Shown piece by piece: positions 285-3,200 of a stretch of 5,679 nucleotides of DNA. The number at the start of each line of letters is the position of its first letter. The first letter of the stretch is position 1. The notes under the pieces were generated by a model. It was not told where the DNA came from. It saw only the letters and a list, made by a program, of their open reading frames with translations, and did no database searches. The position numbers were made by a program, and so were the translations under genes. The stretch lies in IMG/VR virus record IMGVR_UViG_2547132278_000010; one strand, given 5' to 3'. Origin of the DNA: a virus. Its lineage: Duplodnaviria; Heunggongvirae; Uroviricota; Caudoviricetes.

Positions 285-3200
285 ATCCGTCATTGACAAG
301 AACAAATATCGTGCAGGTAAACGTAACTCCGGTCGAATTGTGGAGTTTACCAAAAACAGCATCACTCTCGATGCGCCTGTGTCGTTAGCTAAAAGCGGCA
401 GCTTTATTCGGATATTGAATCAGGAAGGCAAAATCGTTGAGCGCGATGTTCTTGAAACTGGCGAAAACATAACAAAGGTTACGTTTTCAAAAGCTCTGTC
501 GTCAGCGGAAACGCCTGTTTTGAACGGTGTCTGGACAATTACAGAACCAGATCTCGAACCTATGCGCGTTCGCATCGTTAACATCGCTCAGGGGGAAACG
601 TCGGGTAGCTTTGACATCACCGCTGTTGAAAACAATCCGTCTAAATATGAGGCGATCGACAATGGTGCAACGCTTATCCCGCAGAATACGACGGTATTGG
701 ACCCGACTTACTCCAAGCCGTCTAATTTGCAAATCACTGAAGGGACTTACCTCTCAAGCCCGGGCAACCTGTCAGTAAAACTGACTGCAACATGGGAAGG
801 GAAATCTCCAGAGTATTGGATCAGTTGGCGACGTTCTGATGAAAACAATGTATCGAACTGGCAATCGGCGCGTGTAACCGAAGAGCAATACGAAATCGTT
901 AATGTCGCGGAGAATGGACGCTACGACTTCCAACTGTATGCGGTTTCATTCAACGGTAAAAAAACAGAAATTATCAGTACCGTTTATCAGGTGCTGGGCA
1001 CAATGACACCGCCGGATGCACCAACGTCATTAACGGCCGTTGGAGACTATCGTAATGTGATACTGAATTGGGTTAATCCAGATTCGGTAGACCTTGATCA
1101 CATTAATGTTTACGCATCCCAGACCAACAATCTGGATACGGCGAAACTGATCGCAGAGTCTGCAAGCACCACCTTTACACATGCTGGTCTTGGGGATAGC
1201 GAAACGTGGTATTACTGGGTTCGAGCATCGAACAAGCGAGGTATGTTAAGCCCTCCGAACTCAAACTTGGGTACAGAGGCGACAACTCGCGATGTACTGT
1301 CGTTCCTGGCTGGCAAAATTACATCTTCCGAGCTTGGTCAGGCTCTGCTTGAGGACATCAACAGCAAAGCCTCTCAAGAAGCAGTTGACGAGTTAAATGA
1401 GCATATCAACCAGAGCGTCGAATCTTTGGAGGGGGCGGTAAACGACGTTAAGGAAGATATAGCTGAATTAGATAAGCAGTTCAGCGATAACCTCGCGGGT
1501 TTTGAAATAAAATTCAACGAGCGTAGCGATGCTTTGGAGAACGCACAAACCGAGCTTAAAGGTGAGGTTTCGGCAACGATCGACAAGGTCAATGAAGCGT
1601 TTGAAAAAATTGATGCTACTGATGCTGCAATTGTTGAAATCGAAAACACCGTATCTGAACACGATAAAGCTCTCGCTAATACAGTCGAGGCAATAAAGGC
1701 TGCAAGAGACGAAGCGGCGGCTCTTATTGCTAAGGAAAGCGAGGCTCGTGTTGAAGGTGATGCCGCAAACGCTAAACAACTGGAAGTGTTGCAGTCGACG
1801 GTAGAGGAAAGTTCCGCAGCCGTTGAAGAAATGAAAAAGACGGTTGCAGAGGTCGATCGTGCCAGTGCAGAACTGACTACGAACATTGAGGCGTTAGCTA
1901 AAACAAATATTGACCTGGCTCTTCGTCAAGATGAAGACCAGCACAAGCAGATGGTCAATAACGCGAAGATCGCAACAACACAGAAAACCTTTGCTGATGA
2001 TATGTCTGCAATGGCCACGAAGGTTGAGGAAATTCGCGTAGAAATTGGCGAAGACATTAAGGCCAGTATTCTGGAAGAGTCCACCGCTCGTGCCGATGGC
2101 GATGAAGCGTTGGCAAAGCGTGTCACTCAGCTGCAATCTAAGTTTGAAGGAGAGATCAGCGCGGCGATTAGTACAGAGCAGGAGGCTCGTACATCTGCCG
2201 ATGAAGCTCTGACGACACAGATCACTCAGCTTGAGTCGAAAGTAAGCAACGATATCGTCGCAGCTATTAAGGAAGAGCAAGAAGCCCGAGCAACGGAAGA
2301 TTCGGCTCTGGCAAGCCAGATCACCCAACTTCAGGCAAAGGTTGATGATGATATTTCTGCTGCAATACGTAGTGAGCAGGAGGCCCGAGCAAGCGGGGAC
2401 TCTGCGTTAGCCAAACAAATAAACCAGCTTCAGTCAAAGGTTGACGGTGATATATCCGCTGCCATCACTCAGGAGCAGGAGGCCAGAGCAAGTGCTGACC
2501 AGGCGCTCTCACGAGAAATTAACAGCCTGCGAGCACAAACCGGAACTGATATTGCCGCAGCGGTTGCTGTAGAGACAAAAGCAAGGACTGATGCCGATAG
2601 TGCATTGTCTACCCAGATTACGTCTCTTACAGCAAAAGCTAATGATCTCAAGGCGTCTCTTGCCAGAGAAACAACGGCTCGTGCAGATGGTGATACCGCT
2701 TTAACAAAAGAGGTTTCAAGTTTAAAAGCACAGACAGCGAAAGATATTAGTGCGGCCGTTGCAGTTGAAACGCAGGCTCGAACTGATGCTGACTCGGCGT
2801 TGTCGTCTCAGATCACCAAGCTGACCTCTCAATACAAAGAGGATATTAAAGCGGCTGTAGCAACCGAAACGAAAACGCGTACAGAGCAAGATGCTGCATT
2901 GGCGACTCAAATCACAAACTTAGAGTCTCAAACGGCAGCCAACATTTCCGCGGCGGTCACAACTGAAACGAAAGCGAGAACGCAGGCAGATAATGCTCTG
3001 AGTGGGCGAATCGATACTCTGAAAGCAGAGGTGAATGGAAATACCGCGACAATTCAACAGCAGGCAACAGCTATTGCTGATACCAACAAAAAAGTGTCAA
3101 CCGCGTGGACGTTGAAAATGGAGACTTCAACGAGCGGAGGGCAGAAGTATGTTGCCGGTATTGCGCTTGGTATTGACACCACTGGGCTATCTCAGTTTTT

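What the first reader, a model, noticed from the sequence alone, without database searches (positions are those of the whole stretch)
1330..3063. Large alpha-helical expansion in the J homologue with ten tandem 33-residue repeats and hendecad-like hydrophobic spacing
Where lambda J has only a short linker between the conserved 'FFKGKITESHLGKELLE' block and the conserved 'KxYVAGIGL...LSQFLVAANR' block, this protein has ~570 residues of predicted helix. The last ~330 residues form ten near-exact-length 33-residue units. Within each unit the hydrophobic positions recur with spacing 4-4-4-3-4-4-4..., about 9 core positions per 33 residues (~3.67 residues per turn), which suggests an 11/3 (hendecad-type) rather than a heptad coiled coil. 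Such geometry is typical of straight or right-handed trimeric stalks. The repeats have diverged at nucleotide level, arguing for an old, selected structure rather than recent slippage. The result would be a markedly elongated central fibre, and repeat-number variation between related phages could tune fibre length.
Basis: seen in the sequence. Interest (0 to 1): 0.6.

Follow-up and report, generated by a model that had tools for sequence, protein, structure and literature searches.

The report
Repeat-built helical shaft of tail fibre
The central tail-fibre (J) gene of an E. coli SSU5-like phage-plasmid encodes a ~560-residue helical shaft, half of it ten 33-residue modules whose number varies from 5 to 10 in relatives; it is a longer, more regular member of a shaft already solved in F-type pyocins, where it works as a spring that refolds to breach the cell.

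Summary
The J homologue (ORF 271-3510) has ten tandem units at aa 585-913 (nt 2023-3009). Nine are 33 aa and one is 32 aa. Lag-33 autocorrelation gives z=22, the hydrophobic period is 3.65 (33/9), and there is no DNA-level repeat. AlphaFold2 calls aa 339-565 and 573-915 helical.

The window comes from an SSU5-like phage-plasmid of E. coli. Here J is cut at codon ~505 by IS100kyp.

Close relatives carry 5, 6, 7, 8, 9 or 10 whole units, so length does vary in unit steps. The hendecad period, however, is not conserved. In 150 diverse relatives the same unit is most often 32 aa, and all length change sits in one G/D/N-rich spot.

The shaft is homologous to the solved trimeric coiled coil of F-pyocin central fibres and to phage T1 gp33. 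A 2026 preprint shows that the F7 pyocin coil refolds into a beta-prism. Its SxSxxMxxLxS motif fits every unit here twice, in opposite orientations.

This is best read as a new, expanded member of a known shaft family. It is probably a fold-switch spring rather than a passive stalk, but the switch is inferred, not shown.

The parts
1..298 (+). Right end of an IS100kyp (IS21-family) element, including the 3' end of istB (ORF 47-232). It interrupts J at about codon 505 of the 1574-codon gene.
   Evidence: Pfam IstB_IS21, E=7.8e-24. 100% identity to IS100kyp istB ends on many plasmids. Identity to the intact plasmid pR9-658-1 starts at window nt 299.
299..3510 (+). 3' two-thirds (codons ~505-1574) of the J-type central tail fibre / tail tip gene of an SSU5-like phage-plasmid. 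The GTG at 271 is not a real start.
   Evidence: 99.9% identical to 'phage tail tip fiber protein' WP_108432756 (1574 aa), which follows the L, K and I tail-tip genes. PHROG 31 'central tail fiber J', E=1e-123. PDB sequence hits to T1 gp33, the F2 pyocin fibre and lambda J.
1015..1254 (+). Fibronectin type III domain (aa 249-328), the last globular domain before the shaft.
   Evidence: Pfam fn3, 25.1 bits against a cut-off of 25.
1285..1965 (+). First half of the helical shaft (aa 339-565). It is non-repetitive, with a heptad-like hydrophobic period of 3.5-3.6.
   Evidence: AF2 helix at aa 339-352 and 354-565. FFT period 3.54-3.56 and windowed FFT. Only 60-69% identical among SSU5-like J proteins whose hub and tip are 91-97% identical.
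1900..1986 (+). Invariant acidic patch [17 protein letters not shown] (aa 544-560), followed by the only predicted helix break (aa 566-572). It is a candidate docking site for the side fibres (inference).
   Evidence: Invariant columns in the 13-sequence alignment. AF2 shows a break at aa 566-572, with pLDDT<50 over aa 563-574. In F-pyocins the side fibres bind a negatively charged kink of the shaft.
2023..3009 (+). Array of ten tandem units (aa 585-913). Unit starts are nt 2023, 2122, 2221, 2320, 2419, 2518, 2617 (32 aa), 2713, 2812 and 2911. Consensus: I-T-Q-L-x-S/A-K-V-x-x-D-I-S-A-A-I/V-x-x-E-x-x-A-R-A/T-x-A-D-S-A-L-S-x-Q.
   Evidence: lag-33 z=22. Unit HMM scores are 44-56 bits each. AF2 calls the part that was modelled helical.
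3010..3129 (+). Degenerate 11th unit (aa 914-953), predicted as three beta strands (916-921, 924-936, 942-953). These are the start of the distal beta-prism, equivalent to the 'non-switching seed strands' of F-pyocin-type fibres.
   Evidence: DSSP of the AF2 model.
3049..3453 (+). Phage_Tail_Tip (DUF1983) domain, aa 927-1061. The protein ends 18 residues later, with no lambda-type receptor-binding domain.
   Evidence: Pfam PF09327, E=6.8e-42. Foldseek hits to the lambda gpJ central fibre and the SU10 tip fibre.
3604..5679 (+). 5' part of the side tail fibre gene, which runs off the window. Its N-terminal ~105 aa resemble the shaft-binding N-terminus of the F2-pyocin side fibre.
   Evidence: Annotated CDS at 7306-11604 of L001. 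Translation. PDB 25ve_A 'F2-pyocin side fiber', residues 3-105, E=2.2e-4.

Best explanation
Nt 1285-3015 encode the shaft of the central tail fibre of an SSU5-like siphophage that replicates as a plasmid.

Architecture (inferred from homology). Three J chains form one parallel three-stranded alpha-helical coiled coil of about 560 residues, roughly 84 nm. It lies between the FN3 domains of the tail tip and the distal beta-prism tip domain. The proximal 230 residues are heptad-like. The distal 330 residues are ten copies of a 33-residue module.

The module in the helical state. It reads as three hendecads, with core positions 1,4/5,8 | 12,15/16,19 | 23,26/27,30. The invariant E19-R23-D27 ladder lies in the core.

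Mechanism (most likely, inferred). The shaft carries the side fibres. It is also a metastable spring like its F7-pyocin homologue. On receptor engagement the coiled coil would refold from the distal beta seed into a triangular beta-prism. Each 33-residue module would give one beta-hairpin, with strands at about positions 14-24 and 29-6 and turns at 25-28 and 7-13. Each unit would shorten from about 5 nm to about 1 nm. That would pull the tip to the membrane and open it.

Copy number. Unit number (5-10 in close relatives) would set both reach and stroke.

What is shown: the repeats, their periodicity, helix propensity, homology, motif fit and copy-number variation. What is inferred: the trimeric packing, the fold switch and the docking site.

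In this particular genome the gene is inactivated by IS100kyp.
For: Identity and context.

Helix.

Repeats and period.

Homology to a solved trimeric coiled coil. Window aa 779-1051 align to F2-pyocin fibre 927-1193 (domain E=1.3e-21). That stretch is the resolved coiled coil of residues 907-1084. T1 gp33 also aligns, and its repeat is also 33 aa.

Fold switch in the homologue. Cryo-EM, cryo-ET and mutagenesis of the F7 pyocin show it, and it is predicted for 21 of 24 phage fibres.

Motif test. The published SxSxxMxxLxS pattern is satisfied at 100% of positions in all ten units, twice per unit and in opposite orientation (reverse at position 14, forward at position 29). None of 300 column shuffles reaches this. 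The E19/R23 i+4 pair matches F7 E1039-R1043.

Family-wide pattern. In 594 units from 104 diverse proteins the six 'S' positions are small residues in 94-100% of cases. The proposed long turn is G/D/N/P-rich (76%, 50% and 65% at positions 9-11). All length variation (32, 33, 36 or 39 aa) falls there.

Hairpin register. In the degenerate 11th unit AF2 places the beta turns at unit positions 9-10 and ~25-29. That is the same register I propose for the helical units.

Side-fibre docking. The N-terminus of the downstream fibre resembles that of the F2 side fibre, which binds the shaft.

Copy number: 5-10 units.
Against: - No beta state was obtained here. AF2 monomer with an 85-sequence alignment predicts all modelled units as helix at pLDDT 80-90.
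- The fold switch has been demonstrated only in one pyocin and is reported in a preprint. Its authors state that the characterised phages lambda and T5 do not show it.
- The shaft is 3.4 times longer than the 163-residue F7 switch, and some phage fibres are predicted to keep helical inserts. Only part of it may switch.
- The S/M/L motif is loose in an Ala/Ser/Thr-rich sequence. A third, overlapping match (forward at position 22) scores 0.92.
- Small residues next to a trimer core could be explained by helix packing or side-fibre binding alone.
- The gene copy in this window is disrupted, so nothing here is functional in situ.
Confidence: 0.5

Rival explanations
1. Passive stalk. The coiled coil is a stable, rigid spacer. 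It only sets how far the tip domain reaches from the tail and offers a platform for side fibres. Repeat number tunes length, and no refolding occurs.
For: - Helix is the only state predicted here.
- Unit number varies in whole units.
- Each unit adds about 5 nm.
- Side-fibre N-terminal homology suggests a docking role.
- Lambda and T5 function without such a switch.
Against: - Near-invariant small residues sit at six positions that would be exposed or flanking in the coil. A G/D/N-rich spot recurs once per unit. Both are unexpected for a purely structural helix.
- The T+S content is high at 17%.
- There is direct homology to a shaft shown to switch.
- The hendecad period is not conserved, so geometry is not what is selected.
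Confidence: 0.38
2. Membrane- or lipid-binding 11/3 amphipathic helices, as in apolipoproteins, synuclein or LEA proteins. The 11-residue period would reflect helices lying flat on the outer membrane rather than a coiled coil.
For: A period of 3.65-3.67 is the hallmark of such helices (own knowledge of those families).
Against: - The hydrophobic seam is narrow, and one third of it is invariant E/R/D.
- The segment lies between two trimeric domains of a tail-tip protein.
- The homologous segment is a resolved three-stranded coiled coil.
- Relatives mostly have a 32-aa period.
Confidence: 0.03
3. Degenerating pseudogene or low-complexity artefact. The repeats would have no function because the gene is IS-disrupted.
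For: J is interrupted by IS100kyp in this window.
Against: - The intact allele differs from the window at only 5 of 5381 nt.
- It is found in 155 E. coli genomes at 80% or more coverage.
- The two database clusters of this 10-unit allele (P0001, P0002) hold 1290 and 1980 member sequences.
- Phage Cyrano, with 98% identical J, produces virions.
- The unit pattern is conserved across more than 100 diverse proteins.
Confidence: 0.02

Closest known systems
Central fibre protein (CFP) of F-type pyocins: F7 CFP, and the F2 pyocin tail fibre (PDB 25vf). PA0641, described in a separate preprint, is taken here to be the same or a close homologue, which was not checked.
   Same: - Homologous over the distal shaft and tip (E=5e-39).
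- A trimeric alpha-helical shaft lies directly before a beta-prism tip.
- The same E..AR..AD.AL unit is present, including the buried E-R i+4 pair.
- The SxSxxMxxLxS motif is present.
- Side fibres have a homologous N-terminus.
   Different: - The pyocin shaft is about 165-180 aa, not a regular array, and is reported as mostly heptad with one stutter. My FFT on it gives mixed periods of 3.52 and 3.63.
- Here the shaft is about 560 aa, with ten regular 33-aa units and an 11/3 period.
- The pyocin has no capsid or DNA.
- The fold switch is shown there and only inferred here.
Phage T1 gp33 (PDB 9l9p_S) and T1-like central fibres
   Same: - Best PDB sequence hit (E=6.6e-44).
- It also has 33-residue tandem units before the same tip domain.
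- Its C-terminal 352 aa were unresolved by cryo-EM and predicted as a ~370 A alpha/beta fibre.
   Different: - T1 has about 3 near-identical units of a different sub-type (IATETEALSREIDQLKAQIGDD...), against 10 diverged units here.
- No repeat analysis was reported in the T1 paper passages I read.
Lambda gpJ (tip attachment protein J; PDB 8iyk, 8xcj)
   Same: - Same hub, FN3 and Phage_Tail_Tip domains.
- Same gene position after L, K and I.
   Different: - Lambda goes from the FN3 block to the beta fibre within about 4 residues.
- Lambda has a C-terminal LamB-binding domain that is absent here.
- The NCBIfam lambda_TipJ score is 530 against a cut-off of 1950.
Hendecad (11/3) coiled coils such as tetrabrachion RHCC and trimeric autotransporter adhesin stalks (own knowledge)
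   Same: An a-d/e-h hydrophobic pattern repeating every 11 residues, giving 3.67 residues per turn.
   Different: - No sequence relationship.
- One hendecad in three has a charged core (E19, R23, D27).
- The period is not conserved in relatives, where 32 aa is commonest.
- Handedness was not tested.
[quoted passage not shown]
   Same: A metastable trimeric coiled-coil element whose refolding does mechanical work without ATP, if the fold-switch reading is right.
   Different: The direction of change is opposite (loop to coil in HA2, coil to beta here). There is no homology.

Membership tests
Lambda-J-type central tail fibre / tail tip protein (TipJ) | N-terminal hub domains (FNIII-A_GpJ PF24801 and Phage-tail_3 PF13550) | tested here: met
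   Present in the intact allele P0001 (E=1e-29 and 2e-35). In the window itself they are missing, because IS100kyp cuts the gene at codon ~505.
Lambda-J-type central tail fibre / tail tip protein (TipJ) | FN3 domain(s) followed by a C-terminal Phage_Tail_Tip (PF09327) beta fibre | tested here: met
   fn3 at aa 249-328 and PF09327 at aa 927-1061, E=6.8e-42. Foldseek hit to lambda gpJ 8xcj, E=6.6e-7.
Lambda-J-type central tail fibre / tail tip protein (TipJ) | Gene sits after the tail-tip genes L, K (C40 peptidase) and I, and before the side fibre | tested here: met
   Annotation of pR9-658-1, SSU5 and PhiR41_1.
Lambda-J-type central tail fibre / tail tip protein (TipJ) | Full-length equivalence to lambda J (NCBIfam NF049904 cut-off) | tested here: not met
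   529.9 bits against a cut-off of 1950, with only positions 3-876 of the profile matched. It is a J-family protein, not a lambda J equivalent.
F-pyocin-type fold-switching central fibre (He et al. 2026 preprint) | Sequence homology to the C-terminal ~400 aa of the pyocin CFP | tested here: met
   F2 pyocin fibre 25vf_A, E=5.1e-39. Window aa 779-1051 align to residues 927-1193.
F-pyocin-type fold-switching central fibre (He et al. 2026 preprint) | Alpha-helical shaft immediately upstream of about three non-switching beta-prism strands | tested here: met
   AF2 gives helix to aa 915, then strands at 916-921, 924-936 and 942-953. This is a monomer model only.
F-pyocin-type fold-switching central fibre (He et al. 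2026 preprint) | SxSxxMxxLxS pattern in alternating orientation, with an acidic M residue paired with Arg at i+/-4 | tested here: met
   100% of motif positions in 10 of 10 units, at unit position 14 (reverse) and 29 (forward). None of 300 shuffles reaches this. E19 and R23 are invariant. The pattern holds family-wide in 594 units.
F-pyocin-type fold-switching central fibre (He et al. 2026 preprint) | An alternative beta-prism conformation, observed or predicted | tested here: inconclusive
   The only tool available was AF2 monomer, and with 85 sequences it gave helix. The published predictions used trimers and deep against shallow alignments.
F-pyocin-type fold-switching central fibre (He et al. 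2026 preprint) | Trimeric coiled-coil packing of the shaft | not testable with these tools
   Inferred from trimeric J in the solved tails (lambda and F2 pyocin have 3 chains per entry; T1 gp33 is described as trimeric) and from the resolved pyocin coil.
F-pyocin-type fold-switching central fibre (He et al. 2026 preprint) | Side fibres with an N-terminal domain that docks on the shaft | tested here: inconclusive
   The downstream fibre's aa 2-108 align to F2 side fibre 3-105 at E=2.2e-4. The homology is weak and docking is not shown.
Hendecad (11/3) coiled coils | Hydrophobic pattern with an 11-residue period (3.67 residues per turn) | tested here: met
   Period 3.65 with power 5.36, against a shuffle maximum of 1.72. 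Period 3.63-3.70 along aa 582-933, except near the 32-aa unit.
Hendecad (11/3) coiled coils | The period is maintained by selection, i.e. conserved in homologues | tested here: not met
   Unit length is 32 aa in 594 cases, 33 aa in 70, 36 aa in 87 and 39 aa in 38, across 150 relatives. By HMM spacing the counts are 32 aa in 272 cases and 33 aa in 205.
Hendecad (11/3) coiled coils | Straight or right-handed supercoil | not testable with these tools
   This needs a trimer model or an experimental structure.

The most novel reading that the evidence does not exclude
The 33-residue unit is a modular 'fold-switch cassette': three hendecads as a helix and one beta-hairpin as a prism. The tandem array would be a length-programmable spring. 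Ten units would collapse from about 50 nm to about 10 nm. Gain or loss of whole cassettes (5-10 in SSU5-like elements, up to 22 elsewhere) would tune both the reach and the stroke or stored energy of the tail to the thickness of the host's surface layers. This would make copy number a host-range trait that is independent of the receptor-binding tip.
Probability: 0.3. Interest if true: 0.75.

Novelty: new member of a known kind. Interest (0 to 1): 0.4.

Why it matters
How non-contractile tails obtain the energy to breach the envelope is an open question. [quoted passage not shown]

SSU5-like phage-plasmids are common in clinical E. coli, Salmonella and Klebsiella, and they produce virions. They carry a very regular, naturally copy-number-variable version of that shaft: 5, 6, 7, 8, 9 or 10 cassettes on otherwise 91-97% identical hub and tip domains.

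That is a ready-made allelic series. It can test whether shaft length controls reach, stroke and host range, and whether the switch operates in real phages. The clean 33-residue register also gives a simple system for studying sequences that are compatible with both a helix and a hairpin.

If the shaft is only a passive stalk, the finding is an ordinary fibre-length polymorphism.

Tried and rejected
- TRF and nucleotide repeat search found no array at DNA level. The repeat is visible only in protein.
- hmmalign of 612 family units failed for unit positions 1-12, because local alignment trimmed the ends. I replaced it with anchor-based extraction.
- I tried to obtain a beta state with AF2 monomer and a diverse 85-sequence alignment. 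It gave only helix. Multimer or trimer modelling was not available, and both AF2 jobs are used.
- Foldseek against PDB matched only the tip domain (lambda gpJ, SU10). It gave nothing informative for the helix.
- The supplement of the F7 preprint, which lists the 24 phage fibres, is not held. I could not check whether SSU5-like J was among them. 'SSU5', 'hendecad', 'heptad' and 'repeat' do not occur in its main text.
- A literature search for hendecad with phage tail found nothing on J-type fibres.
- I considered lipid-binding 11/3 amphipathic helices and a pseudogene or low-complexity artefact, and rejected both (see rivals).
- By eye I thought Klebsiella phage K50 had a 44-aa (4x11) unit. Measured spacing is 36-44, mostly 40, so I dropped that claim.
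- Phage Cyrano's EM tail length of 259 nm, against 230 nm predicted from the tape measure protein, is compatible with a long tip fibre but too imprecise to use.
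Full report
WHAT THE WINDOW IS.

The 5679-nt window is 99.9% identical from nt 299 onwards to ~110-kb E. coli plasmids such as pR9-658-1. These are SSU5-like phage-plasmids. The protein is 98% identical to that of phages Cyrano and CMS-2020a and 66% identical to that of Salmonella phage SSU5.

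In the intact plasmid the gene is a 1574-codon 'phage tail tip fiber protein'. It follows the L, K (C40 peptidase) and I tail-tip genes and precedes a 1432-codon side fibre. The intact protein has FNIII-A_GpJ, Phage-tail_3, fn3 and Phage_Tail_Tip domains and matches PHROG 31 'central tail fiber J'.

Window nt 1-298 are the right end of IS100kyp, an IS21-family element, with the istB 3' end at 47-232. Identity to the intact plasmid starts at nt 299, which is J codon ~505. In this genome J is therefore disrupted, and the GTG at 271 is not a start codon. The rest differs from the intact allele at only 5 positions.

CHECK OF THE OBSERVATION.

Against lambda J, window aa 15-365 align to J 487-837. 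Window aa 924-1051 align to J ~841-971.

The region aa 354-931 has no Pro, Cys or Trp. AlphaFold2 monomer models call aa 339-352, 354-565 and 573-939 helical for the isolated segment. With the tip domain present they call aa 718-821 and 826-915 helical, followed by beta strands at 916-921, 924-936 and 942-953 (mean pLDDT 83).

Ten tandem units start at aa 585, 618, 651, 684, 717, 750, 783, 815, 848 and 881 (nt 2023-3009). Nine are 33 aa. The unit at 783 lacks one residue at unit position 8. Mean identity is 47% at protein level and 51% at nucleotide level. Identical residues share a codon in only 34% of cases. Similarity autocorrelation peaks at lags 33, 66 and 99, with z of 22, 19 and 10. TRF and a nucleotide repeat search find no array.

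The hydrophobic period is 3.65 in the array, equal to 33/9 and far above every shuffle. In aa 354-584 it is 3.54-3.56.

ANATOMY OF THE UNIT.

Column by column, these positions are invariant or nearly so: I/V1, L4, D11, I12, A14, I/V16, E19, A22, R23, D27, A29 and L30.

An 11-residue register places the following in the a, d/e and h positions:
- 1, 4/5 and 8
- 12, 15/16 and 19
- 23, 26/27 and 30

Two hendecads therefore have hydrophobic cores. The third contributes an invariant E19-R23-D27 ladder with i+4 spacing.

RELATIVES AND COPY NUMBER.

An HMM of the unit counts the following in SSU5-like J proteins:
- 10 units in the window and in P0001, P0002 and P0016
- 9 in P0015
- 8 in P0005 and P0007
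- 7 in P0010
- 6 in P0018
- 5 in the SSU5 class and the commonest 1386-aa class

P0005 is P0002 minus exactly 66 residues. Copy number thus changes in register and is still changing, even though the units are old at DNA level.

Among these proteins the hub (91-97% identical) and the tip (92-97%) are conserved. Both halves of the shaft are only 60-72% identical.

An exhaustive search with array plus tip finds 3270 clusters at E<=1e-3 and 1495 at E<=1e-10. In the best 150 representatives, 131 carry the unit, with up to 22 copies.

Measured between E..AR anchors, the period is 32 aa in 594 cases, 36 aa in 87, 33 aa in 70 and 39 aa in 38. All the length difference lies between unit positions 8 and 14. 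The 11/3 period is therefore a property of the SSU5/T1 sub-type. It is not the conserved design principle.

Isolated phages with the module include Vibrio, Psychrobacter, Burkholderia KS9, Aeromonas, Klebsiella, Stenotrophomonas, Pseudomonas and T1-like phages.

WHAT IS KNOWN ABOUT THE HOMOLOGOUS SHAFT.

The best PDB sequence hits are:
- phage T1 gp33 (9l9p)
- the F2-pyocin tail fibre (25vf)
- a 'J-like gp24' (23gd)
- lambda J

In T1 the C-terminal 352 residues were too flexible to resolve and were predicted as a ~370 A fibre. The T1 alignment shows the same 33-aa period.

In F-type pyocins the equivalent segment is a resolved three-stranded coiled coil of about 170 residues. It is described as mainly heptad with a stutter, and three side-fibre trimers dock on it at a negatively charged kink.

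[quoted passage not shown] That opens the tip and ejects the tape measure protein. Gln substitutions at small prism-corner residues abolish killing but not assembly. The same switch is predicted for 21 of 24 siphophage fibres. The signature is SxSxxMxxLxS in each strand, with acidic M residues paired to Arg at i+/-4.

TESTS OF THAT READING ON THIS SEQUENCE.

(i) Scanning the motif at every offset and in both orientations, two non-overlapping placements of opposite orientation satisfy 100% of positions in all ten units. They are reverse at unit 14-24 and forward at 29-6. None of 300 column shuffles reaches that. A third, overlapping placement scores 0.92, so the motif is somewhat permissive.

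(ii) E19 (an M position) and R23 reproduce the F7 E1039-R1043 pair.

(iii) In 594 32-aa units from 104 diverse proteins, the six S positions are small residues in 94-100% of cases. The L positions are aliphatic in 96-100%. Positions 9-11 are G/D/N/P in 76%, 50% and 65% of cases. That pattern is odd for a plain helix and natural for a hairpin turn. It is also exactly where unit length varies.

(iv) In the degenerate 11th unit AF2 builds a hairpin with turns at unit positions 9-10 and ~25-29. This is the register I deduced for the upstream units.

(v) The downstream side fibre's first ~105 residues resemble the shaft-binding N-terminus of the F2 side fibre (E=2.2e-4).

(vi) The shaft's only predicted break (aa 566-572) follows an invariant acidic patch at aa 544-560. 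This makes it a candidate dock.

Against the switch: AF2 monomer gave helix for all modelled units. No multimer modelling was possible. The switch is shown only for a pyocin. This shaft is 3.4 times longer.

CONCLUSION.

The feature is the trimeric helical shaft of a J-type central fibre, built in its distal half from a 33-residue module. It belongs to the same homologous family as the T1 and F-pyocin shafts, so it is a new, expanded and unusually regular member of a known kind.

The 'tunable length' idea is borne out, with 5-10 units and about 5 nm each. Two parts of the interpretation need revision. First, the hendecad geometry is not conserved. Second, the more likely role is a metastable spring and side-fibre platform rather than a passive stalk.

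I put 0.5 on the spring reading and 0.38 on the passive stalk. Trimer modelling, cryo-EM of virions on cells and Gln substitutions at the small positions would decide between them.

Noticed in passing
window 1-298 (junction at 298/299): The right end of IS100kyp (IS21 family, istB 3' end at 47-232) is inserted in J at codon ~505. The phage-plasmid in this genome should be unable to make tails. The listed ORF start (GTG at 271) lies inside the IS end.
   Followed up: yes
window 1285-3009, compared with hub and tip in P0015, P0018, P0036 and P0037: Among SSU5-like J proteins the helical shaft is the divergent part (60-72% identity, with indels). The N-terminal hub (91-97%) and the C-terminal tip domain (92-97%) are conserved. 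This is the opposite of the usual 'variable tip' picture for host-range proteins.
   Followed up: partly
window 3604-3930 (side fibre aa 1-108): The N-terminus of the downstream side tail fibre resembles the N-terminus of the F2-pyocin side fibre (25ve_A, E=2.2e-4). It also resembles 'distal tail protein gp20' of entry 23gd (E=7e-3). This suggests that the side fibres dock on the J shaft, as they do in F-pyocins.
   Followed up: partly
window 1900-1986 (aa 544-572): The invariant acidic stretch [17 protein letters not shown] is followed by the only predicted helix break, KIATTQK, at the boundary between the heptad-like half and the 33-aa array. Hydrophobic periodicity is weak across aa 516-603.
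   Followed up: partly
L005 3501-11197 (Klebsiella phage pJN2-26, MZ779062): Klebsiella SSU5-like phage-plasmids have a 4045-aa J homologue. It matches the window protein only up to aa ~403. It then continues with other helical stretches and what look by eye like globular insert domains (not domain-searched).
   Followed up: no
P0002 against P0005 (array region): Two otherwise near-identical E. coli alleles differ by exactly 66 aa, i.e. two units. The junction unit is a hybrid of units 684 and 717. This points to recent in-register recombination despite only ~51% nucleotide identity between units.
   Followed up: partly
window 3998-5002, both strands: Long ORFs of 231-327 aa in alternative frames overlap the Ala/Ser-rich, GC-rich (0.58-0.65) central part of the side fibre gene. 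They are most likely frame artefacts of the biased codon repeats. That part of the fibre also matches Mu tail fibre protein S (5yvq, E=1.5e-8).
   Followed up: no
P0121-P0270 (representatives): The same unit occurs up to 22 times per protein, in proteins of up to 4233 aa from genomes and metagenomes. Many of these carry several separate arrays.
   Followed up: partly
window 1351-3150: There is a strong A-over-T skew (0.2-0.38) and a G-over-C skew on the coding strand across the shaft. This probably reflects the A/E/T/K/Q-rich codon usage of the repeats (my inference).
   Followed up: no
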